A stretch of 64,000 bases of DNA from Candidatus Nomurabacteria bacterium (GTDB lineage Bacteria > Patescibacteriota > Minisyncoccia > Phycocordibacterales > UBA918). A model generated the notes under the pieces. The model saw only the letters and a program-made list of their open reading frames with translations, was not told where the DNA came from and ran no database searches. The translations under genes and the position numbers were made by a program. The stretch spans positions 3,575-67,574 of the forward strand of contig JACKGG010000004.1 of the NCBI GenBank assembly GCA_020632035.1. The letters are read 5' to 3'. This document shows, one piece after another, positions 11,309 through 21,105 of the stretch (position 1 is the first letter of the stretch; every line of letters begins with the position of its first letter).

Positions 11309-12584
11309 AGTTTTTCTTGATAGAGTCCAAAATATCTTTTGTAGTTATAGACTTTAATATTTCAGGTGTTCTCGCATAGACCTCCCATTGTCCAGATGAT
11401 ACGTATTCAGTAAGTTCTTGTGCAATTCGTAATGAATGCTGTCTAGCAAACATTTCGTCTGTTAGAATTCCTGCCTTAGCTTTTTTTAGTAGTGGACTTA
11501 TTGTTTTTGCGTCTAAGGCCTTGAAGCTATTGAGTACTAGACTTTCAATTTCATTGTGAGTTTGACCTTCTGCCAAGGTGACACTAAGTAGTCCGAGGTT
11601 TGTTTCGGAAGTGGGTTCAATTGCTCCGTCAACACTCGATGCCTTGCCTGTGTCGATTAATAAACGATGAAGAATACTTTCCGGACCAGTAGATAGAATA
11701 CCCAACATTATGTTAGTTACGAACCAGTCTTTTGTTGGGAAGCCTTCATGTTTAAAACCGATAGATACGATATTTGTGTTTGACTCTCTTTCGATTGAAA
11801 TTCTACGGACACCTTCTTGTTTCGGTTCCCTGATTGTAAATCTTGGTATAGAAGTGTCAGGGTTTTTGATGTCACCGAATGACTTACGCACTGCTTCAAG
11901 AGCTGTCTTCTTATCAATATCACCAATAACCATCATAACGGCATTGTCAGGTCGGTAATAATTTCGGTAAAACTTTTCCAGCTTATCAGGTGTATAGTCT
12001 TCTATATCTTCTCGATAGCCAATAGTTTCATGTCCATAAGGATGAGAATGAAAGGCGGTGCTACACATCTGGACAGAAAGGGCGAAATGCGGGTCGCCAT
12101 TGTACATGTCAAACTCACTAAGGACATTGCCTTGCTCAGGCTTTAATTCTTTATCATTTAGAATCACACCATTCATTCTCTCTGCTTCAATTTGAAGCGC
12201 TTCGTTCAAAAGCTCCTTAGGGTAGCTGAAGTAGTATGTGGTTCGGTCTTTCCAGGTGTTGGCATTTAAGATGCAACCGGTCTCACGTTCAAACTGCATG
12301 CTTTTACCAGACTTAATTCCCTGCTTTACATCAGTTTCGGTTGGCTTAAACAACATGTGCTCAAGCATGTGTGCGACACCGGTCACTCCCCTTTCTTCAT
12401 CTCTGGCTCCAACTAGATAAGTGACATTAGTTGTAACCACGCCTGTTTCTGGGCGATTGTGATACAAAACACGAAGTCCATTGCTTTTGAGCTGGTACTC
12501 ATCCACCCCACCAGCACTTTTGATAAAGGTGTATCCGGTAACTGATGTTTTGTTTTTTGCTTTAGCTGAGGTTGTCTTTGACAT
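11262..12584 (-). CDS. M16-family zinc metallopeptidase, catalytic subunit (inverted zincin HxxEH)
   Basis: GVAHMLEHMLFKPT contains the HxxEH zinc-binding motif of the M16 family. 440 aa. Confidence 0.85.
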   Translation of the reverse strand: MSKTTSAKAKNKTSVTGYTFIKSAGGVDEYQLKSNGLRVLYHNRPETGVVTTNVTYLVGARDEERGVTGVAHMLEHMLFKPTETDVKQGIKSGKSMQFERETGCILNANTWKDRTTYYFSYPKELLNEALQIEAERMNGVILNDKELKPEQGNVLSEFDMYNGDPHFALSVQMCSTAFHSHPYGHETIGYREDIEDYTPDKLEKFYRNYYRPDNAVMMVIGDIDKKTALEAVRKSFGDIKNPDTSIPRFTIREPKQEGVRRISIERESNTNIVSIGFKHEGFPTKDWFVTNIMLGILSTGPESILHRLLIDTGKASSVDGAIEPTSETNLGLLSVTLAEGQTHNEIESLVLNSFKALDAKTISPLLKKAKAGILTDEMFARQHSLRIAQELTEYVSSGQWEVYARTPEILKSITTKDILDSIKKNFEENNLTIGYFVGKN

Positions 12585-13173
12585 CGAATATAAAATCTTT
12601 ATAGGTTTTAAATGTGTGATTGAACTCGTGTACTATACCATCTGCTAGTCTGCTGTTGATAGCATTTGCGATATTTTGGTATGCTTCTAGCCTATTGTCG
12701 AGGTGTGTACCAAATTCCCTCAAGAACCCGTTGTGGTCATCATAGTAATCCTCTACCATACTTCTAAAGTTGTGAGTTTTGTCGGCTGCGGCAATCATCA
12801 CTGCTTCTATAGGACCTTTACGAAGCTGTTTCGCATAATTTTTTTTGATTTCAAGCCAGGACTGTTTATCTTGGTCGCTGCTTCCTGGTTCAGTTAAAGT
12901 TTGTACGATTAGTGCGACTTTTTCTCCAAAATCCTCGACCAACTCTTCGTAGGTGTAGTCTGTGTCCTCTAAGGTGTCGTGCAGTAACCCAGCTACCAAG
13001 GTATCTTCGTCAGTTGTGTAGTCTCTTAGAATCAGAGTAACAGCCATTAGGTGGGTTAGGTAAGGTAATGGTACCGAACCTTTTCTAAGTTGGTCCTGGT
13101 GAAGTAATGATGCTGCTTTTATGGCTTGTTCAATTTTGTACGAATACATAGAGTTCCAACTATAATACAACAC
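12562..13173 (-). CDS. HD-domain hydrolase of the RelA/SpoT-hydrolase type (small alarmone hydrolase-like, Mesh1-like)
   Basis: IEQAIKAASLLHQDQLRKGSVPLPYLTHLMAVTLILRDYTTDEDTLVAGLLHDTLEDT reproduces the RelA/SpoT HD block (H...HD...ED). No synthetase domain. The likely true start is the internal MYSYKIEQ. Confidence 0.7.
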   Translation of the reverse strand: MLYYSWNSMYSYKIEQAIKAASLLHQDQLRKGSVPLPYLTHLMAVTLILRDYTTDEDTLVAGLLHDTLEDTDYTYEELVEDFGEKVALIVQTLTEPGSSDQDKQSWLEIKKNYAKQLRKGPIEAVMIAAADKTHNFRSMVEDYYDDHNGFLREFGTHLDNRLEAYQNIANAINSRLADGIVHEFNHTFKTYKDFIFDVKDNLS

Positions 13174-13417
13174 CTTCTCTTTTTAATAAAAGCTTTTTTG
13201 CCGTCTCTCCTCCTCGATTGTATCCACCGGGACTGCCATCGCTACGAATAACTCGATGGCAGGGTATAGTTTTGTCGAAATTTTTCGCCATTATATTAGC
13301 GACGGCACGGGCGGCTTTAGGGTGGCCGACTGCGCTGGCCACCTCCATATAGCTACGCACCTCCCCTAGAGGGATTTTTTTAACTACTTCTGTAACTTTA
13401 GTTGTAAAGTTTTTCAT
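13160..13417 (-). CDS. MGMT-family protein: stand-alone DNA-binding/active-site domain of O6-alkylguanine-DNA alkyltransferase
   Basis: 85 aa. VASAVGHPKAARAVANIM...IPCHRVIRSDGSPGGY contains the PCHR active-site cysteine motif and the helix-turn-helix of the Ogt/Ada C-terminal domain. Overlaps the downstream HD gene by 14 nt. Confidence 0.75.
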   Translation of the reverse strand: MKNFTTKVTEVVKKIPLGEVRSYMEVASAVGHPKAARAVANIMAKNFDKTIPCHRVIRSDGSPGGYNRGGETAKKLLLKREGVVL

Positions 13418-13428
13418 GTGAAGTAAGC

Positions 13429-14217
13429 CTATTTAATTTTGTTAGCAAAATGGATTGCTTGCAGTTTCTTTCCTGCTGCTTCCCGATACGGACAAAATTC
13501 ACATGAGTCACCAGATGGTGGCAAGTCTTTTTCATTAAGGCAGGCTTTAATTTCTGCTAGCGTGGAGTTTATCCAGCTGACATCGGCTTCTACCGGTACT
13601 AAGGTTGTCTCAAATATAAGTTTGTCTCCAAACTCCGGTAATGATTTGTCAGCATTTGCATAGACTAAGTACCCGGTTGGTTGGACACTAAAACCATTCA
13701 TCTCTAGTAGCCACTTATAGACCCCAAGCTGGCGTGTGTATTGCTTCTCCCATGGACTATCACCCAGTTTGTCGATCCGCCCTTCTTTTGAGGTTGATTT
13801 ATAATCTACAATGATAAGTGAGCCGTCTGGCGCGACCCAGATGTCATCTACTCCCCCGCTTACGGTCAGACCTGTTGGTTTATGTGTATGTGTAATACCG
13901 ACAAATGGGTCGCGCCAGGTATCCATGTTTTTATGTTCAAAAGGTACAGCGTCAATTTTAAATTTTTTCATTATCGGGTGCGGTTTTTGGGTTTTTCGGT
14001 ATTTATCAAACTCTTTCTTAAACAATTCGTCTACAGCGATGTTTAAATTAAATGATGGAAAACCAGGGCGCTTAGTTCCTAAAACGTTATCAAGATAGAA
14101 ACATCTTGGACACTCAAAAAAGAAGTCGATTTTTGACCTAGATAGTCGCCACTTTTCTCCACCGTAGTTCCACTCAGCTTTTCGATTAGGGTTGTATTTA
14201 TATGTATATTCTGCCAT
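13429..14217 (-). CDS. PD-(D/E)xK nuclease superfamily protein with Cas4/AddB-like cysteine pairs (putative Fe-S cluster)
   Basis: Nuclease core signature ...VDDIWVAPDGSLIIVDYKST (D...D-x-K). An N-terminal CPRC plus a C-terminal CEFCPY match the Cas4-like Cys arrangement. Confidence 0.55.
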   Translation of the reverse strand: MAEYTYKYNPNRKAEWNYGGEKWRLSRSKIDFFFECPRCFYLDNVLGTKRPGFPSFNLNIAVDELFKKEFDKYRKTQKPHPIMKKFKIDAVPFEHKNMDTWRDPFVGITHTHKPTGLTVSGGVDDIWVAPDGSLIIVDYKSTSKEGRIDKLGDSPWEKQYTRQLGVYKWLLEMNGFSVQPTGYLVYANADKSLPEFGDKLIFETTLVPVEADVSWINSTLAEIKACLNEKDLPPSGDSCEFCPYREAAGKKLQAIHFANKIK

Positions 14218-14480: not shown

Positions 14481-14597
14481 TCCTTTTTATAAGGTCTGTT
14501 TCAAGATTAGTTCTTATTTATATTTGCGTCAAATTAGTTATACATAAGAAAAAGCCCAACTAAAGTGGACTTTTTCGAAATTCTTCAAGTTAGCTAT

Positions 14598-15149
14598 CTA
14601 TTTAGCAGTGAATGTATCGAAGATTTTGTCGATCTGAACATCTCCGGCCAGACTGAAGTCGTAATCACCATCCTCAGTAAAGATTACTACAGCGTATTGT
14701 CGATCTGGTGTTGTGGAACGTTGCAAGATAATTTCGGATGGTACTAGACCGTATGATTCGCTGAATCGAACTACACCAAGAATATAGCCAAGTTTACCAT
14801 CATTGTACTCTCGTACGCCGATCCATCCTTCGCTAACTGGGTATACTGCGCTTTCTAGTTTTACTGAAGCAGATGCTTCCTGGTCCTCTACATTAACTGA
14901 GCCGTCACCAACCTCTAGTACTGGAAGTTCCTTCATAACTTCTTGATCTGTTGTCCCTCCAGTATTGTCTGTGTTTGGTACAGTAACGGTCTCTGATTCC
15001 ACTACTTCTGCTGAACTATCGTCCTTCATGTCTCCATCAGGAGCATTAGCACTAGGGCCAGAAAAAGCCCAAACTAACATTCCGCCGATAAGGAGTCCGA
15101 CTACGAAGGCAACTAATGTCTTCTGTCCGTCTTGTTTTTCTTCTGCCAT
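14598..15149 (-). CDS. membrane-anchored hypothetical protein with an acidic extracytoplasmic domain
   Basis: 183 aa. The N-terminal TM helix LVAFVVGLLIGGMLVWAF is followed by an Asp/Glu/Thr-rich region. Confidence 0.45.
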   Translation of the reverse strand: MAEEKQDGQKTLVAFVVGLLIGGMLVWAFSGPSANAPDGDMKDDSSAEVVESETVTVPNTDNTGGTTDQEVMKELPVLEVGDGSVNVEDQEASASVKLESAVYPVSEGWIGVREYNDGKLGYILGVVRFSESYGLVPSEIILQRSTTPDRQYAVVIFTEDGDYDFSLAGDVQIDKIFDTFTAK

Positions 15150-15245: not shown

Positions 15246-16106
15246 CTATTTTTGACCACAAAGGGCTCGTACTTCTTGCATTAGGGCTTCGTGCTTACGC
15301 TTCGGTAGGTGCAGGTGTCGCAAGACTGCTTCGTGCGCTAGAATATCTCGACAAAGTATAATGTCACGAGCAATCAGTGTTTCAGCTTGTGAAGATGATA
15401 AGTTTTGTAACACTGTAATCGGATAAACAGCCGCTCTTTGTATTCTGTCGTGCAGGTTGTCATTTTTGGGGTAATCCCAGCTAAGCATTTTTAAACCGAC
15501 ACAATTACCATAATCTTGAGCTGTGGTTGTGAACTTGGTATTTGTAATTAACCAAAACTCTTTTATGCCACAAATATCTTCGGAACAAATACTGGCGTCT
15601 CTCAGATCTAAAAGTCGGGCGTAAGAGTACATGGCAACTTGTAAATCAGATTTTACTCCCGGTCTAGAGTGAAATTTGGCTTCACCGACAAAACTATGGT
15701 CTTTTCTATAGGCAGCCAGGTCTATTTCGTGCGGAGCACATTTACCTTGAATAATGATACCAGTCCTTATTTTGTAACCATCAAGTTCGAAAAGTCGACC
15801 TAGAAATTTTTCAAAAGGAAAACCCGTGGGACCGAGGTTAAACAAGGCTCTTCGTAGTGAATATCTGGCTGCAGCTGGTGGTCTGGCGTTTCGCAGCAGG
15901 CTAAAAGCGTGTCGGTAAATTTCTTGTGTTTGCACTCCATCATATAGAGTCTTATTTACTTCTGTGACGATTTCGTTAATTTCGTCTGCACTAGCTCCAG
16001 CACGCCTTAGAGAACGACGTAGCTTTTCTATCTTAAAGAACTCAGCCGTCCCATCGGCCTTAGTAATAGTTATTGGCATTAAGCAAGTATACCACCACCA
16101 ATGCAT
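15246..16106 (-). CDS. ATP-cone domain fused to a restriction-endonuclease-like (Mrr-type PD-(D/E)xK) domain
   Basis: N-terminus ITKADGTAEFFKIEKLRRSLRRAGAS has the ATP-cone pattern seen in NrdR and RNR. The central region HEIDLAAYRKDHSFVGEAKF has the D...E-x-K nuclease signature. The likely start is MPITITK. The 3' end of mnmA overlaps this gene's start by 28 nt. Confidence 0.55.
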   Translation of the reverse strand: MHWWWYTCLMPITITKADGTAEFFKIEKLRRSLRRAGASADEINEIVTEVNKTLYDGVQTQEIYRHAFSLLRNARPPAAARYSLRRALFNLGPTGFPFEKFLGRLFELDGYKIRTGIIIQGKCAPHEIDLAAYRKDHSFVGEAKFHSRPGVKSDLQVAMYSYARLLDLRDASICSEDICGIKEFWLITNTKFTTTAQDYGNCVGLKMLSWDYPKNDNLHDRIQRAAVYPITVLQNLSSSQAETLIARDIILCRDILAHEAVLRHLHLPKRKHEALMQEVRALCGQK

Positions 16107-17182
16107 TGTGATCCTTTGTATAATACACAGGATTGACCAACCACCGCAACTTCAGTTGGTTTTAAAATAGTTAATATCATAGAGTTATTCTTTGCCTCAT
16201 GAGCTACAACTTTAAACGGTGCCTGGCGGTATCTAAATTGTGCTTCGAGAATTTCTCCATCCTTGAGCTGGCTTCTAAGAACAACATTAGAAATCAATAA
16301 ATTATTGCCTGGGTTTGTTTCTGGTTTAGTAGAGTTTACTGTAATAGTGTTAGATTCAATGTCTCTGCTGGAAATGTACATTGCTTCTCTGGCTGTGTCT
16401 TTCGTGTTCAGGGTGAAGCCGTGACGCTGACCAATTGTATAAACCAGTGCTCCTTTATGCTTTCCTACTACTTTCCCAGCTTCATCTAACACATCACCTT
16501 TTTTTAGGTCTATGTAATGGGAAAGAAACTCAGGAATATCAACATGGCCTAGAAAGCAGATCCCTTGACTGTCTTTTTTTATAGCTGTAGGTAAACCTAG
16601 TTTTTCTGCTTCTTTACGGATTTGTGACTTTGGTGTATCGCCAATTGGAAATAGTGTGTAATCAAGCTGATCTTGAGTTAAGGTCCATAAAAAATATGTT
16701 TGGTCTTTGTTACTGTCTACTCCCCGATGCATCTCAGCTTTCGGCACAGGGCCACCCTTTGTAATCTTGTCATTCTCTGTAGTGTTCGTTGGGTTTATGC
16801 GTTGTGCATAGTGACCAGTCGCAATGAAGTCAGCCCCTCTTTCTTTTGCAAAGCGCAAAAAGGCACCAAATTTGACCTCTTTGTTACACATTACGTCTGG
16901 ATTAGGTGTTCGACCTGTTTTGTATTCCTCTATGAAATATTTTGCCACTTCATCGCGGTATTCTGCTTCAGCGTCGCAAGTAAGAAAAGGTATCTCTAAA
17001 TGAGCTGCTACCCGCATGGCGTCCAGCCTCTCTTGTTCCCAGTTGCACACCATAAACTCTGGATGCCAGACTTTGATAAAAACTCCGACTACGTTGTAGC
17101 CGCGCGCCAAAAGGCGCGCGGCCGCCACCGACGAATCCACCCCTCCAGATAACCCAACAAATACTGTTTGTTTCTTTCTCAT
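16079..17182 (-). CDS. mnmA: tRNA-specific 2-thiouridylase MnmA
   Basis: PP-loop VFVGLSGGVDSSVAAARLL. The overall length and central and C-terminal domains match MnmA/TrmU. Confidence 0.9.
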   Translation of the reverse strand: MRKKQTVFVGLSGGVDSSVAAARLLARGYNVVGVFIKVWHPEFMVCNWEQERLDAMRVAAHLEIPFLTCDAEAEYRDEVAKYFIEEYKTGRTPNPDVMCNKEVKFGAFLRFAKERGADFIATGHYAQRINPTNTTENDKITKGGPVPKAEMHRGVDSNKDQTYFLWTLTQDQLDYTLFPIGDTPKSQIRKEAEKLGLPTAIKKDSQGICFLGHVDIPEFLSHYIDLKKGDVLDEAGKVVGKHKGALVYTIGQRHGFTLNTKDTAREAMYISSRDIESNTITVNSTKPETNPGNNLLISNVVLRSQLKDGEILEAQFRYRQAPFKVVAHEAKNNSMILTILKPTEVAVVGQSCVLYKGSQCIGGGILA

Positions 17183-17239
17183 TCGAAGACTCTAGCATAT
17201 TGTTGACAAAAACTAAAACTGTTATACTTTTGTATAAAT

Positions 17240-17596
17240 TTGTTCCATTTAAAAAGGTGCTCAGTATGTCTATCAAAATACACCATGAAAAACATATGCA
17301 AGAGGGGGGAGATCGCCAATCCCTTTAGTGAAGATTTTACAAAAAATGTTGAATCTTTTTCAAATTTGATAAACCTCAACAATTATTTGATTCGACATGT
17401 AGCTTCTGTACCAAAATTGAGAATCGATGGAGTTGTCTATAAAGGAGAAAAGGCTTTGTTCAACCAGTCTTTTTGTTTAGATAAGGAGACACTTCCATAT
17501 TTCAGGGCAATCTTAAAAATAAGCATAAGAAGAATGATTGTCGAGTTGGAAAAAGATGGAATTGTAAATGTAAACATTCCAGAGCTAAAAGATTAA
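17240..17596 (+). CDS. hypothetical protein
   Basis: 118-aa ORF divergent from mnmA, followed by a hairpin terminator. No motif recognised. Confidence 0.35.
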   Translation: MFHLKRCSVCLSKYTMKNICKRGEIANPFSEDFTKNVESFSNLINLNNYLIRHVASVPKLRIDGVVYKGEKALFNQSFCLDKETLPYFRAILKISIRRMIVELEKDGIVNVNIPELKD

Positions 17597-17621
17597 TCGT
17601 GTGAACTTCAGCGGTTACACG

Positions 17622-17648
17622 AGGCGGCACTACGGTGCCGTTTAATTT
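17622..17648 (+). terminator. hairpin (GGCGGCAC-TAC-GGTGCCG) followed by a T-run; overlaps the mltG stop codon
   Basis: Sequence ggcggcactacggtgccgtttaattt lies downstream of the 17240..17596 ORF. Confidence 0.4.
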
Positions 17649-18687: not shown

Positions 18688-20034
18688 CTAAAAGTTTCCA
18701 GTTGGAAGGTTGGCTGGGGCTTCTTTTCTTACTGAGTCAACTCGGGTTAAGTTAGGGGTAACCACAGAAGAGCCTGGTATGTGCCATATAGTAGCTAGTT
18801 CTTCGACTGACATGACCTTAAAATCATCAATGGCTGATAGCTTTTCCTCCTTAATGTAGTAACGAGCTTTGTAGTTTTCTAACTCACGCTTTTTTGCGTT
18901 CAAAACTCTCTGGCCAGTAATGTCTTGAAAAAACATATAATTAAAGTCTGTTCGCCATCTAACTTTAAAAATATTTCTACCAAACATGTCGTACTGGGCA
19001 AATGTTTTCACTAAAGGACTGATCATATCTGAGTCAAATTTGCCAATTTCAGCAATGTACATAGCCCTGATTCCAACTTCATAAGCATATTTGCTAACGT
19101 TTCTTTCTATGGCTGCAATTGTGTCTCTTTCAGACAGAGTAAGGATTGGACGATTGTCAGTTTCCTCAGGGCCAGTTTTATCTTTATCTCTGCCCATTAA
19201 CTCGTTTACTACTTTCTTTGCTGCAGTCTCCCAAGAATCTTTTTCTACTAGTTTACCTTCTTTTAAACCCATTTTTGTGTGAGGCACCATCAAAAACTGT
19301 ATCCAAACTCTTTCGTGCGGTTTAGCCTTGCCTAAATACTCAAGCATGGGAGACATTGGTTCAAATTTTAGTTCTTCTTTTGGTTGTTTATCTAGACCAA
19401 AATCAATATATGTTTTTATCGGGAAAACCTCATCATCTTTTTTGCCCATATGAAAAGACATTATTTCCCATTTTTCTGGATCCCAGGTTACTTCAGCTGT
19501 GTAGTCAACAAGTTCTTCTACTACCTCTATCCCAGGGTATTGAGCATATAACTGAGCCTCAAGTATAGGCTTTACTTTTTTTGTTGGAACATTTGCATAA
19601 AAGCGCACTTCACCCCCAATCGACGCCAGTTCTAGGCTCGAGACTAGTGGATGTTTACCATCTAAATAAGTCTGCATTAAGTTATCACGGCTATTTACAC
19701 TGTGTATTTGAGCTAAGATACTTTCCATCGCTTCAGGGGTCTTTAGAACTTCCTGAGGAAGCTTAATGCGAAGAGTTGTTCGGCCATTTTCATACTTAAA
19801 TTTTTCTTCTACTGACCACATCCACTGCTCAAATGTAATGTAAAAAATAGCTAATGGCAGCCAAATAGGAGACAGCGCCACTGCTATAGTTAGGATTGGT
19901 TTAAAGTTAACCCCAAGAGTTTGGAGCATGAAATACAAAATTGCCAAACCAACAAACATAAAAGCTGGCGGAGCAAACCCAGCAACTAGTGATCTTAGTT
20001 TTTCACCCATAGTGAATATATTGTACACTATCAA
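18688..20034 (-). CDS. hypothetical membrane protein (two N-terminal TM helices plus a large soluble domain)
   Basis: 448 aa. TM helices FAPPAFMFVGLAILYFMLQTL and ILTIAVALSPIWLPLAIFYI. No enzymatic motif recognised. Confidence 0.5.
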   Translation of the reverse strand: MIVYNIFTMGEKLRSLVAGFAPPAFMFVGLAILYFMLQTLGVNFKPILTIAVALSPIWLPLAIFYITFEQWMWSVEEKFKYENGRTTLRIKLPQEVLKTPEAMESILAQIHSVNSRDNLMQTYLDGKHPLVSSLELASIGGEVRFYANVPTKKVKPILEAQLYAQYPGIEVVEELVDYTAEVTWDPEKWEIMSFHMGKKDDEVFPIKTYIDFGLDKQPKEELKFEPMSPMLEYLGKAKPHERVWIQFLMVPHTKMGLKEGKLVEKDSWETAAKKVVNELMGRDKDKTGPEETDNRPILTLSERDTIAAIERNVSKYAYEVGIRAMYIAEIGKFDSDMISPLVKTFAQYDMFGRNIFKVRWRTDFNYMFFQDITGQRVLNAKKRELENYKARYYIKEEKLSAIDDFKVMSVEELATIWHIPGSSVVTPNLTRVDSVRKEAPANLPTGNF

Positions 20035-20079: not shown

Positions 20080-21105
20080 TTATTCAGACAGAGTGTAAGT
20101 TCCGTTTGAAAGTTTCTTAAATAGATTAGCGTCTTGAAGATTAACCAAGATAGTATTGTCCTTCACGTAACGTTCCTTTCTAACTTTGTCAATTAGTTCT
20201 TCGCGTGATAAAGGACCGTCGTTTGCCAGAATTTCTCGTAGCACATCTTTTACAACTCCAGCAGTGTAACCCCACTCAGTTAGTGCGTATAGACCACGAC
20301 CAACCAAAACAAATCGTGCGTCCTTGATGAGTTCATTGTGTGTAGTGGCAACATGAGCTTTGTGGTCAAACAGCTCATTGATTGTTTTTGCTACTTCACG
20401 AAAGTGCATTGGAGAACCATGGCGCTTAACAGCTAAGTAAGCGTAGTCTCTAATTCCTTTTACTCGGATGTTTGGACTGTCTGCTACTCCCCAGTCACCC
20501 AGCGGATTTCGTCCAATTTGCTTAGAAATCTCTAGCCATCTTTTTAGTACGTCCTCATTGTGGACTTCAGCTAGTTCAGCTAGTTCATTTCTAAAACGAG
20601 AAATTATCTCAGCTTCGCTTACAAGCTCGTCTCTGCCTAGTCCTTTGTGAACGCTGCGCAGAGCTTTTTCTACGTTGTCGGCTACTCGTCTTTCGGTAAA
20701 CCAGCGGTGAGAGTATTGTGGATTTTCTTTGCTCTTGTAGAAAGGATCTCCAACAATTAGTAAGAAATACAAGTGATTCCTTGTGGCCGGATCAGTACTG
20801 AGTTCGTCTAGCAAGACGTGCTCAGCAATAATTCCGCCACCTAGTTGGTCGATAAGTTTCTGCATTTCTACAAATAACTCGTAGTTCTTTTTGTAGACTT
20901 CTGATTTTTGAATTGATTGAATACCATAGTTTTCAATTTGGCGTACTCTTTCGCGAGTTATACCATAAGACTGTCCAATAGCTTCCAGGGTGAAAGAGTC
21001 ACCGTCTTGGCCCAGGCCATATCTTTTTTCAAGCACGTCACGTGCTCGCTCTGGAAGTACTTCCAGCAATGCTTTTGTAATTTGTTTTGGTTTAAATGAA
21101 ATCAT
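20080..21105 (-). CDS. protein with an N-terminal sigma-70 region-4-like HTH and a C-terminal HARE-HTH-like domain
   Basis: FTLEAIGQSYGITRERVRQIENYGIQ is a classical sigma-70 region 4.2 helix-turn-helix. The C-terminal ARFVLVGRGLYALTEWGY resembles the HARE-HTH (RpoE-delta-like) signature. Regions 2 and 3 of sigma-70 are absent. Confidence 0.5.
   Translation of the reverse strand: MISFKPKQITKALLEVLPERARDVLEKRYGLGQDGDSFTLEAIGQSYGITRERVRQIENYGIQSIQKSEVYKKNYELFVEMQKLIDQLGGGIIAEHVLLDELSTDPATRNHLYFLLIVGDPFYKSKENPQYSHRWFTERRVADNVEKALRSVHKGLGRDELVSEAEIISRFRNELAELAEVHNEDVLKRWLEISKQIGRNPLGDWGVADSPNIRVKGIRDYAYLAVKRHGSPMHFREVAKTINELFDHKAHVATTHNELIKDARFVLVGRGLYALTEWGYTAGVVKDVLREILANDGPLSREELIDKVRKERYVKDNTILVNLQDANLFKKLSNGTYTLSE

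What the first reader, a model, noticed from the sequence alone, without database searches (positions are those of the whole stretch)
15246..16106. ATP-cone sensor fused to an Mrr-type restriction-endonuclease fold, translationally coupled to mnmA
The N-terminal 90 aa have the ATP-cone pattern (…TKADGTAEFFKIEKLRRSLRRAG…) that in NrdR and ribonucleotide reductases binds ATP/dATP allosterically. The remainder carries a PD-(D/E)xK core (HEIDLAAYRK…GEAKF). A nucleotide-gated DNase is a plausible but, to my knowledge, uncharacterised defence or genome-maintenance effector. Its start codon lies inside the last 28 nt of mnmA, so the two are co-expressed.
Basis: inference. Interest (0 to 1): 0.6.

Follow-up and report, generated by a model that had tools for sequence, protein, structure and literature searches.

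The report
ATP-cone-gated nuclease, conserved housekeeping gene
The gene is real and encodes a nucleotide-sensing (ATP-cone) domain fused to an intact restriction-enzyme-type nuclease. It belongs to a large, already catalogued but never tested family. In this organism it behaves like a slowly evolving core gene co-transcribed with mnmA, not like an anti-phage defence gene.

Summary
Observation confirmed. On the minus strand, 15246-16079 encodes a 277-aa protein.

The protein has three parts:
- an ATP-cone (Pfam 35 bits, above cut-off; fold matches NrdR and NrdA);
- a PD-(D/E)xK nuclease of the Mrr/AF1548 clade, with E90, D120, E133 and K135 invariant in 54 diverse relatives;
- an AF1548-type C-terminal helical domain (PDB 1Y88, E=3e-31).

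Its ATG shares one base with the mnmA stop (TAATG). mnmA lies directly upstream in 67 of 69 related Patescibacteria loci.

The defence reading is not supported. There is no PADLOC hit and no viral relative, and the neighbours are housekeeping genes. The gene is more conserved than mnmA in 41 of 44 syntenic loci.

In Bacteroidota and Acidobacteriota, orthologues sit with beta-CASP RNase, tandem Usp genes, PPK2, MgtC, a P-type ATPase, and AMP-phosphorylase-like and Prs-like genes.

Best reading: an adenine-nucleotide-gated nuclease for cell-intrinsic nucleic-acid turnover tied to energy or nucleotide status. The domain architecture is already in databases ("ATP cone domain-containing protein", "restriction endonuclease"); I found no experimental study. 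Moderately interesting.

The parts
15246..16079 (-). CDS of the ATP-cone nuclease (277 aa, stop codon included). The 286-aa ORF reaching 16106 is the longest ORF, not the likely gene.
   Evidence: 100% identical to the 277-aa public protein P0001, and homologues are about 277 aa.
15822..16070 (-). ATP-cone domain (residues about 4-86): beta-hairpin plus four helices. Residues I5, K7, E13, K19 and Y73 align with NrdR V51, K53, E59, K65 and F127.
   Evidence: Pfam 35.1 bits, above the 25.8 cut-off. Foldseek matches NrdR/NrdA. Family profile against E. coli NrdR, E=0.002, alignment shown. NrdR contact residues from PMC12176259. Conservation counts.
15810..15836 (-). Invariant linker/first-helix motif LGPTGFPFE (residues 82-90), ending in catalytic-helix residue E90.
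   Evidence: G83, G86, F89 and E90 are invariant in 54 diverse relatives. This motif was the search pattern that retrieved 597 metagenome relatives.
15474..15815 (-). PD-(D/E)xK nuclease core (residues about 89-202) of the Mrr_cat/AF1548 clade. Catalytic codons: D120 = 15720-15722, E133 = 15681-15683, K135 = 15675-15677.
   Evidence: 1Y88 at E=3e-31. Foldseek matches 1Y88, MspJI, AspBHI and Can2. E90, E118, D120, E133 and K135 are each 54/54. Codons read.
15261..15425 (-). AF1548-like C-terminal helical domain (residues 219-273); presumed nucleic-acid-binding.
   Evidence: PF22357 36.3 bits, above the 23.9 cut-off. A profile of this domain hits only 1Y88 in the PDB, E=2e-12.
16079..17182 (-). 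mnmA (tRNA 2-thiouridine(34) synthase), the upstream gene. Its TAA stop shares base 16079 with the nuclease ATG.
   Evidence: NCBIfam MnmA 376 bits, above the 284 cut-off. mnmA lies immediately upstream in 67/69 related loci. Overlap in 31 of 77 loci and a gap of 0-30 nt in 17.
14598..15149 (-). Downstream 183-aa membrane-anchored acidic protein of unknown family; probably the third gene of the transcription unit.
   Evidence: No family hit. Immediately downstream in 52/67 related loci. No terminator-like site lies between it and the nuclease.
17334..17363 (-). Best promoter-like site upstream of mnmA (10/12 match). Consensus match only.
   Evidence: The number of such sites in the region is not above the shuffle expectation.
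14548..14576 (-). Terminator-like hairpin plus T-run, just after the 183-aa gene. Consensus match only.

Best explanation
The gene encodes a three-domain enzyme. An N-terminal ATP-cone binds adenine nucleotides. A catalytically intact PD-(D/E)xK nuclease of the Mrr/AF1548 clade cuts nucleic acid. An AF1548-type helical C-domain probably holds the substrate.

By analogy with RNR and NrdR, I infer that nucleotide loading of the ATP-cone (ATP/ADP, possibly dATP) changes oligomeric state or domain packing and so switches the nuclease on or off.

In this Patescibacteria genome it is a vertically inherited, strongly constrained core gene. It is transcribed and translationally coupled with mnmA, in an mnmA - nuclease - small membrane protein unit.

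Its role is most likely cell-intrinsic nucleic-acid turnover or processing tuned to the cell's nucleotide or energy status (nucleotide recycling or stress response). It is unlikely to be restriction of foreign DNA.

Shown: the domains, the catalytic and ligand-site residues, the coupling to mnmA, the conservation and the gene neighbourhoods.
Inferred: nucleotide binding, gating, the substrate (RNA or DNA) and the physiological role.
For: Domains and folds.

Active site: E90, D120, E133 and K135 are 54/54 across about 35-70%-identical relatives. They equal the predicted catalytic triad of AF1548.

Ligand site: family positions 5 (V/I, 53/54), K7 (54/54), E13 (39/54) and K19 (52/54) align with E. 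coli NrdR V51, K53, E59 and K65. Mutations of the corresponding S. coelicolor NrdR residues reduce nucleotide binding (PMC12176259). Y73 (53/54) aligns with NrdR F127. In NrdR, nucleotide combinations switch oligomers and activity.

Core-gene behaviour: full synteny in close relatives. The gene is more conserved than mnmA in 41/44 loci and than mltG in 44/44. mnmA is directly upstream in 67/69 loci, with stop/start overlap in 31/77.

Links to nucleotide and energy genes in other phyla:
- beta-CASP RNase (aCPSF1/Cas14-like) immediately downstream in 48/69 loci, and Usp immediately upstream in 41/69;
- PPK2, MgtC, a Ca/Mg-type P-type ATPase, and an archaeal-type nucleoside/AMP-phosphorylase-like gene plus a Prs-like gene in Cyclobacterium, Saprospiraceae, Sediminibacterium and Aridibacter;
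- MgtC also sits downstream in distant Patescibacteria.
Against: - No biochemical data exist for any family member.
- The window protein itself is below the Mrr_cat gathering score.
- E13 is replaced in 15/54 relatives, and the NrdR Y131 equivalent is not conserved. dATP sensing is therefore uncertain, and the ligand could be another nucleotide.
- The beta-CASP/Usp/PPK2 partners are absent from this 64-kb window, so the role is transferred from about 40%-identical orthologues.
- The Patescibacteria neighbours PDDEXK_1 and ATL fit a DNA-repair role equally well.
- Conserved synteny in small Patescibacteria genomes may not imply a functional link to mnmA.
- Some non-Patescibacteria copies lie in apparently mobile metal-resistance islands.
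Confidence: 0.42

Rival explanations
1. DNA repair/recombination nuclease. A structure-specific endonuclease (resolvase- or flap-like) acts on chromosomal DNA, and the ATP-cone couples its activity to dATP/ATP pools, i.e. to replication status.
For: In Patescibacteria the conserved downstream block is a PDDEXK_1/Cas4-like nuclease plus an ATL-type alkyl-DNA-binding protein. Some sources name relatives 'Holliday junction resolvase'. Two of 54 relatives weakly hit the Hjc Pfam model. A nuclease plus a helical C-domain resembles the layout of structure-specific nucleases (inference).
Against: In other phyla the tightest partner is an RNA-type beta-CASP enzyme (aCPSF1/Cas14-like, not the ligase-associated DNA exonuclease). 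The wider partners are energy and nucleotide genes, not rec/ruv/uvr genes. No repair gene overlaps or is translationally coupled to it.
Confidence: 0.25
2. Anti-phage or anti-plasmid effector. A type IV/Mrr-like nuclease is unleashed when infection perturbs ATP/dATP pools.
For: The catalytic domain belongs to the Mrr_cat clade and resembles MspJI/AspBHI and the ligand-gated defence nucleases Can2/Cdn1. A Planctomycetota homologue lies next to an SNF2-NOV_C helicase. Several Bacteroidota copies lie in islands that look horizontally transferred.
Against: No PADLOC match. No relative among viral contigs, and no full-length viral structural match. Neighbours in the window are LeuRS, a sigma-like protein, MltG, MnmA, ATL, HD_4 and M16 peptidases. 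Strict synteny across 62-84%-identical relatives, and slower evolution than mnmA, are the opposite of typical defence-gene dynamics. There is no methyltransferase or Mrr_N-type DNA-recognition domain.
Confidence: 0.12
3. The ATP-cone is a degenerate structural or oligomerisation module that no longer binds nucleotides, so the nuclease is constitutive or regulated otherwise. Alternatively, the protein is a non-catalytic nucleic-acid-binding regulator.
For: The second residue of the K-R motif typical of RNR cones is Ala/Ser. E13 varies in 15/54. The sequence match to solved ATP-cones is weak (E=0.002-0.1).
Against: E. coli NrdR, which has solved ATP/dATP complexes, also has Ser at that position. 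K7, K19, Y73 and K/R76 are near-invariant. All catalytic residues are invariant, which argues against a non-catalytic role.
Confidence: 0.1

Closest known systems
AF1548 of Archaeoglobus fulgidus (PDB 1Y88; Pfam Mrr_cat + AF1548-like_C), a structural-genomics protein of unknown function
   Same: Residues 92-275 align at E=3e-31 and 32% identity, with TM 0.78 to the chain. Same D...ExK triad (D38/E51/K53 in AF1548), same C-terminal helical domain, and three of the four conserved cysteines.
   Different: AF1548 has no ATP-cone, and its function was never determined. It was only predicted to be a hydrolase/REase (PMC1821046, PMC1874628).
NrdR and the N-terminal ATP-cones of ribonucleotide reductases (NrdA, NrdD)
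   Same: Same sensor fold (Foldseek probability 1.0, rmsd about 2 A over about 81 residues for 7p37/9gex). The NrdR residues V51, K53, E59 and K65 are conserved. The likely logic is the same: adenine-nucleotide loading changes quaternary structure and output.
   Different: The output domain is a nuclease, not a Zn-ribbon DNA binder or a reductase. There is no genomic link to nrd genes. The NrdR outer-site Tyr131 equivalent is not conserved, so ATP/dATP discrimination may differ.
Mrr and modification-dependent type IV restriction enzymes (Mrr, MspJI, AspBHI)
   Same: Catalytic domain of the same PD-(D/E)xK clade (Steczkiewicz group 50: Mrr_cat/COG1787/1y88). Structural matches to MspJI and AspBHI.
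   Different: It lacks the N-terminal modified-DNA-reading domain (Mrr_N or SRA-like); an ATP-cone sits there instead. It behaves as a conserved syntenic core gene, not a patchy defence gene.
Ligand-gated PD-(D/E)xK nucleases of CRISPR/CBASS signalling (Can2, Card1, Cdn1; VC1899-like)
   Same: A small-nucleotide sensor domain fused N-terminally to a restriction-fold nuclease. Structural matches at E about 1e-3. The concept of a nucleotide-switched nuclease.
   Different: The sensor is an ATP-cone rather than CARF/SAVED. The presumed ligand is a primary metabolite (ATP/ADP/dATP), not a dedicated second messenger. No cyclase or CRISPR genes are nearby.

Membership tests
ATP-cone (Pfam PF03477) | Sequence match above the curated gathering score | tested here: met
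   35.1 bits against a cut-off of 25.8. 47 of 54 family representatives match at E<=1e-3.
ATP-cone (Pfam PF03477) | Fold: N-terminal beta-hairpin capping a four-helix bundle | tested here: met
   The model has E4-6, E12-14, H17-26, H31-42, H51-65 and H67-80. Foldseek probability 1.0 to NrdR and NrdA cones.
ATP-cone (Pfam PF03477) | Conserved nucleotide-contact residues (NrdR V51, K53, E59, K65) | tested here: met
   I5, K7, E13 and K19 are present in the window protein. Family counts are 53/54 (V/I), 54/54, 39/54 and 52/54. The outer-site Tyr131 equivalent is not conserved.
ATP-cone (Pfam PF03477) | Actual binding of ATP/dATP and an allosteric effect | not testable with these tools
   Needs ITC/DSF and activity assays.
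Mrr_cat / PD-(D/E)xK restriction-endonuclease fold (PF04471) | Sequence match above the gathering score | tested here: not met
   14.8 bits against a cut-off of 21 for the window protein. 48/54 relatives match at E<=1e-3, and many carry precomputed PF04471 hits.
Mrr_cat / PD-(D/E)xK restriction-endonuclease fold (PF04471) | Catalytic E...D...(D/E)xK residues on the alpha-beta-beta-beta-alpha-beta core | tested here: met
   E90, D120, E133 and K135 are invariant. The structural match to 1Y88, MspJI and AspBHI supports the fold.
Type IV (Mrr-like) modification-dependent restriction enzyme | N-terminal modified-DNA recognition domain (Mrr_N winged helix or SRA-like) | tested here: not met
   The N-terminus is an ATP-cone. 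No Mrr_N hit at E<=1.
AF1548-like proteins (PDB 1Y88; PF22357 C-domain) | Nuclease core plus AF1548-like C-terminal helical domain | tested here: met
   phmmer E=3.1e-31 over residues 92-275. PF22357 at 36.3 bits, above the 23.9 cut-off. The C-domain profile hits 1Y88 at E=2e-12.
Known anti-phage defence systems (PADLOC-DB v2) | Match to a defence-protein model, or residence in a defence island | tested here: not met
   0 PADLOC hits at E<=1. Neighbours are housekeeping genes. No viral relatives.
NrdR-type regulators / RNR subunits | ATP-cone joined to a Zn-ribbon or an RNR catalytic/radical domain; nrd gene context | tested here: not met
   NCBIfam NrdR 14 bits against a cut-off of 125, and NrdA 16 bits against 965. 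All relatives carry the nuclease instead.
CARF/SAVED ligand-gated nucleases (Can2/Card1) | CARF or SAVED sensor domain and an associated cyclic-oligonucleotide synthase | tested here: not met
   Only the nuclease domain aligns structurally (TMq about 0.3). One of 54 relatives weakly hits Card1_endonuc. No cyclase or cas genes in any locus.

The most novel reading that the evidence does not exclude
The family is an energy-charge or adenylate-pool-gated nuclease. When ATP falls (or the ATP/ADP/dATP balance shifts), it starts breakdown of cellular or imported RNA/DNA to feed nucleotide salvage. In Bacteroidota and Acidobacteriota it would work with the beta-CASP RNase, the AMP-phosphorylase-like and Prs-like enzymes and PPK2. 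In Patescibacteria it would be a core housekeeping switch for organisms that depend on nucleic-acid salvage. It would then be the first ATP-cone shown to control anything other than deoxyribonucleotide synthesis.
Probability: 0.22. Interest if true: 0.7.

Novelty: new variant of a known kind. Interest (0 to 1): 0.45.

Why it matters
In the literature I could search, ATP-cones have been studied only as regulators of ribonucleotide reductases and of their repressor NrdR. Here the same sensor sits on an intact nuclease, in a family with several hundred 50%-identity clusters spread over at least five phyla.

In Paceibacteria-type Patescibacteria the gene is kept under tighter constraint than the tRNA-modification gene it is coupled to. 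In other phyla it is wired to RNA degradation, polyphosphate and nucleotide-salvage genes.

If nucleotide gating is real, the family extends ATP-cone allostery to nucleic-acid degradation. It would also give a simple, testable link between energy or nucleotide status and nucleic-acid turnover in bacteria with minimal genomes.

If gating is not real, this remains an ordinary, already catalogued hypothetical nuclease.

Tried and rejected
- PADLOC scan: no hit.
- Viral contig scan with the family's most conserved motif: 4 pattern matches, none a relative. The BFVD fold search gave only single-domain matches.
- Literature searches for ATP-cone with restriction endonuclease, Mrr, nuclease, Usp or endonuclease: nothing on this architecture. 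One search failed on syntax.
- Profile of the C-terminal domain against PDB sequences: only 1Y88, so my impression that it is helix-hairpin-helix-like stays untested.
- Rfam scan of 12-20 kb: no RNA element, including the 464-nt gap upstream of mnmA.
- tblastn of beta-CASP, MgtC, PPK2, the AMP-phosphorylase-like gene, Prs, Usp and AAA_28 against the window: none present, only the PDDEXK_1 gene. The partners seen in Bacteroidota therefore cannot be claimed for this locus.
- The 286-aa start was rejected in favour of the 277-aa start.
- Promoter and terminator hits are consensus matches, with counts near the shuffle expectation. They are used only as a tentative operon sketch.
Full report
**1. 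What is in the sequence**

The ORF lies on the minus strand, 15246..16106 (286 aa from the first ATG).

The minus-strand sequence at the 5' end reads ATG CAT TGG TGG TGG TAT ACT TGC TTA ATG CCA. The upstream gene ends ...GGT ATA CTT GCT TAA in another frame. The second ATG (base 16079) therefore shares its A with the TAA stop of the upstream gene (TAATG).

The public protein that is 100% identical (P0001, 277 aa, named 'ATPase', Candidatus Nomurabacteria/Kaiserbacteria) starts at that second ATG. So do essentially all homologues. I take 15246..16079 as the gene.

The upstream gene (16079..17182) is mnmA: NCBIfam MnmA 376 bits against a cut-off of 284, with all three MnmA Pfam domains.

**2. 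Domains**

- Pfam puts an ATP-cone at the N-terminus (35.1 bits, cut-off 25.8) and an AF1548-like_C domain at the C-terminus (36.3 bits, cut-off 23.9).
- Mrr_cat scores only 14.8 bits, below its cut-off of 21.
- Residues 92-275 match the crystallised A. fulgidus protein AF1548 (PDB 1Y88) at E=3.1e-31.
- Of 54 diverse family representatives, 48 hit Mrr_cat, 47 hit ATP-cone and 35 hit AF1548-like_C at E<=1e-3.
- Steczkiewicz et al. place 1y88 in the Mrr_cat/COG1787 group of PD-(D/E)xK enzymes (PMC3424549).
- An AlphaFold2 model (pLDDT 84.6, pTM 0.71) matches 1Y88 (E=1.7e-14, TM 0.78 to the target). Its nuclease domain matches MspJI, AspBHI, Can2, Cdn1 and VC1899. Its N-terminal domain matches NrdR and NrdA (probability 1.0; about 2 A over about 81 residues for 7p37 and 9gex).

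A third domain should be added.

**3. Are the functional residues intact?**

I aligned 54 representatives at 35-71% identity to the window protein and counted residues.

Nuclease site:
- E90, E118, D120, E133, K135, R155, D158, T179 and N180 are each 54/54.
- D120/E133/K135 align with D51/E64/K66 of the 1Y88 chain. Allowing for the 13-residue numbering offset, these are the D38/E51/K53 predicted as catalytic in two independent papers (PMC1821046; PMC1874628).

ATP-cone site:
- A family profile of the domain finds E. coli NrdR at E=0.002.
- The printed alignment pairs family positions 5, 7, 13 and 19 with NrdR V51, K53, E59 and K65.
- Rozman Grinberg et al. report that mutating the corresponding S. 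coelicolor NrdR residues reduces nucleotide binding and alters oligomeric state. They also report that K53 bridges the inner ATP and the outer dATP (PMC12176259).
- Family counts: V/I 53/54, K 54/54, E 39/54, K 52/54.
- Y73 (53/54) aligns with NrdR F127, the residue that excludes ATP from the outer site. The equivalent of NrdR Y131 is not conserved.
- The Ala/Ser after K7 replaces the Arg seen in RNR cones, but E. coli NrdR has Ser at this position.

I conclude, by inference, that adenine-nucleotide binding at the inner site is likely. Whether dATP is discriminated remains open.

**4. Size and spread of the family**

- An exhaustive HMMER search of 1.84 billion cluster representatives gave 1205 hits at E<=1e-3 and 433 at E<=1e-30. 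Almost all of the best 150 are about 270-295 aa and cover the whole query.
- Named members come from Patescibacteria (Nomura-, Kaiser-, Pace-, Taylor- and Amesbacteria), many Bacteroidota, Balneolaceae/Rhodohalobacter, Planctomycetota and Acidobacteriota.
- Sources call them 'ATP cone domain-containing protein', 'restriction endonuclease', 'ATPase' or 'Holliday junction resolvase'. Precomputed Pfam hits are PF03477 + PF04471 (+ PF22357).
- The architecture is therefore already catalogued. I found no paper that studies it.

**5. Context in the window and in close relatives**

Neighbours on the same strand are:
- LeuRS;
- a Sigma70_r4/HARE-HTH protein;
- an unassigned 448-aa protein;
- MltG (YceG);
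- MnmA;
- the nuclease;
- an unassigned 183-aa membrane-anchored protein;
- a PDDEXK_1/Cas4-like nuclease;
- an ATL-type DNA_binding_1 protein;
- an HD_4 protein;
- two M16 peptidases.

None is a defence gene, and PADLOC finds nothing.

In 37 species-level relatives at 62-84% identity, the whole block is syntenic.

I analysed 169 loci from genome and metagenome scans:
- mnmA is immediately upstream on the same strand in 67 of 69 evaluable loci of the window's class.
- The stop and start overlap (TAATG, TAGTG or TGATG) in 31 of 77 loci, and the gap is 0-30 nt in a further 17.
- The mnmA link persists down to 42-47% identity, where other neighbours have changed.

In 44 loci that carry all the genes, mean identity to the window is 69.6% for the nuclease, 61.9% for MnmA and 56.0% for MltG. 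The nuclease beats MnmA in 41 of 44 loci. That is strong purifying selection on a vertically inherited gene.

A tentative operon sketch, based on consensus matches only, is:
- a promoter-like site at 17363-17334;
- then mnmA, the nuclease and the 183-aa gene;
- then a terminator-like hairpin at 14576-14548.

**6. Context in other phyla**

In the Bacteroidota-class loci:
- the gene is followed immediately by a beta-CASP metallo-beta-lactamase with an RMMBL domain in 48 of 69 loci;
- it is preceded by a universal-stress-protein gene in 41 of 69 loci;
- there are typically 3-5 tandem double-Usp genes behind a response-regulator/cNMP/Crp regulator.

NCBIfam relates the beta-CASP partner to aCPSF1 and Cas14-type ribonucleases rather than to the ligase-associated DNA exonuclease.

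Other orders and phyla show further linked genes:
- Cyclobacterium, Saprospiraceae, Flavobacterium and Sediminibacterium: a Ca/Mg-type P-type ATPase (11-nt overlap with the nuclease gene), MgtC, PPK2, and an archaeal-type 'thymidine'/AMP-phosphorylase-like enzyme with a PRK07199-type ribose-phosphate diphosphokinase.
- Aridibacter (Acidobacteriota): the same phosphorylase/Prs pair follows the gene.

MgtC also follows the gene in several distant Patescibacteria, in the slot that the 183-aa protein occupies in the window's lineage. Some of these clusters lie inside metal-resistance islands with identical gene order in three families, which suggests horizontal transfer.

The only defence-like neighbour seen is an SNF2-NOV_C helicase in a Planctomycetota contig.

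No relative exists in 2.9 million viral contigs. No viral predicted structure matches both domains.

**7. Interpretation**

Molecular level. The most economical reading is a nuclease whose activity or assembly is set by adenine nucleotides bound to the ATP-cone. The precedent is NrdR, where nucleotide combinations decide between DNA-binding tetramers and inactive filaments (PMC12176259), and the RNRs. This step is inferred, not shown.

Physiological level. The conserved partners outside Patescibacteria are RNA degradation, polyphosphate-driven nucleotide phosphorylation, nucleoside/AMP phosphorolysis, PRPP synthesis, Usp, MgtC and a cation ATPase. These point to nucleotide and energy homeostasis under stress. 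The core-gene behaviour in Patescibacteria points to a housekeeping role. I put this at about 0.4.

Rivals. The main rival is a DNA repair or recombination nuclease tuned to dNTP status. The PDDEXK_1 and ATL neighbours in Patescibacteria support it (about 0.25). The defence reading is weak (about 0.12). A degenerate ATP-cone or a non-catalytic protein is unlikely given the invariant residues (about 0.1).

Limit of the inference. The beta-CASP/Usp/PPK2 partners are not in this window. The transfer of role from about 40%-identical orthologues is itself an inference.

**8. Comparison with known families, and novelty**

The protein is a member of the ATP-cone family and of the AF1548-like/Mrr_cat nuclease clade. 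It is not a type IV restriction enzyme, because it has no modified-DNA reader. It is not an NrdR or RNR protein. It is not a CARF or SAVED nuclease, although it may work like one: a sensor domain gating a restriction-fold nuclease.

The gene itself is one more member of a catalogued family. The family as a whole is an unstudied variant of two known themes, ATP-cone allostery and ligand-gated nucleases.

Interest is moderate. The architecture is not a discovery. Three things about it are new, coherent and directly testable:
- its core-gene status in Patescibacteria;
- its tight coupling to mnmA;
- its recurrent partnership with RNA-degradation and nucleotide-salvage genes.

**9. Open points**

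- Four conserved cysteines (C114 53/54, C193 53/54, C243 46/54, C274 43/54) suggest a metal or redox site that I could not examine.
- The reason for the mnmA linkage is unexplained.
- The substrate (RNA or DNA) is unknown.

Noticed in passing
window 14598-15149 (-): A 183-aa protein with one N-terminal transmembrane helix, an acidic low-complexity stretch and a C-terminal domain. It has no Pfam or NCBIfam hit. It lies immediately downstream of the nuclease in 52/67 related loci. In more distant Patescibacteria the same slot is occupied by MgtC (L052, L085/86, L125, L131, L156, L158).
   Followed up: partly
window 12562-14217 (-): A conserved block of a PDDEXK_1/Cas4-like nuclease (13429-14217), an ATL-type DNA_binding_1 protein (13160-13417) and an HD_4 protein (12562-13173), with overlapping gene ends. 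The PDDEXK_1 protein is even more conserved than the ATP-cone nuclease (72.6% against 69.6% mean identity).
   Followed up: partly
ATP-cone nuclease residues C114, C193, C243, C274 (window 15738-15740, 15501-15503, 15351-15353, 15258-15260): Four cysteines are conserved across the family (53/54, 53/54, 46/54, 43/54). AF1548 keeps the first three. They could form a metal, disulphide or redox site.
   Followed up: no
L060, L069, L072, L149: Aequorivita-type loci carry two diverged paralogues of the ATP-cone nuclease (about 50% and about 80% identity to the Aequorivita seed), flanking the beta-CASP gene in opposite orientation.
   Followed up: no
L083, L087, L089 (also L171): Saprospiraceae, Flavobacterium and Sediminibacterium share the same order: ACR_tran, ACR_tran, P-type ATPase, nuclease, (MgtC, PPK2), beta-CASP, AAA_28. 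The block lies inside HMBD/CusB/DUF3347/DUF305 metal-resistance genes. This looks like a horizontally moving stress island. The Aridibacter copy also sits among copper-resistance genes.
   Followed up: partly
L081/L082 and L171: The Cyclobacterium and Aridibacter loci also hold a Peptidase_M50-CBS protein, PFOR, PEP-utilising enzyme fragments and SHOCT proteins. From my own recollection, the gene set resembles actinobacterial hypoxia/dormancy regulons; I did not test this.
   Followed up: no
L170 8001-12978: A Planctomycetota homologue lies upstream of a 1194-aa SNF2/ResIII helicase with a NOV_C domain. This is the only defence-like neighbourhood seen. Some cluster members there are 462-522 aa, with an N-terminal extension.
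   Followed up: no
L040, L046, L051, L079 (about 4520-4924 in L079): A small 134-aa ORF (cluster C11) sits between the Usp genes and the nuclease in four Flavobacteriaceae loci. It has no significant Pfam hit. Its sequence reminded me of eRF1/baeRF-like proteins, which I did not test.
   Followed up: no
window 17183-17646: The 464-nt gap between mltG and mnmA contains no Rfam match. It holds the best promoter-like site (17363-17334, minus strand) and a hairpin next to the mltG stop (17622-17643).
   Followed up: partly
window 20080-21105 (-) and 18688-20034 (-): A 341-aa protein combines Sigma70_r4 with a HARE-HTH domain. Next to it is a 448-aa membrane protein without any family hit, which is conserved upstream of mltG in all close relatives.
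   Followed up: no
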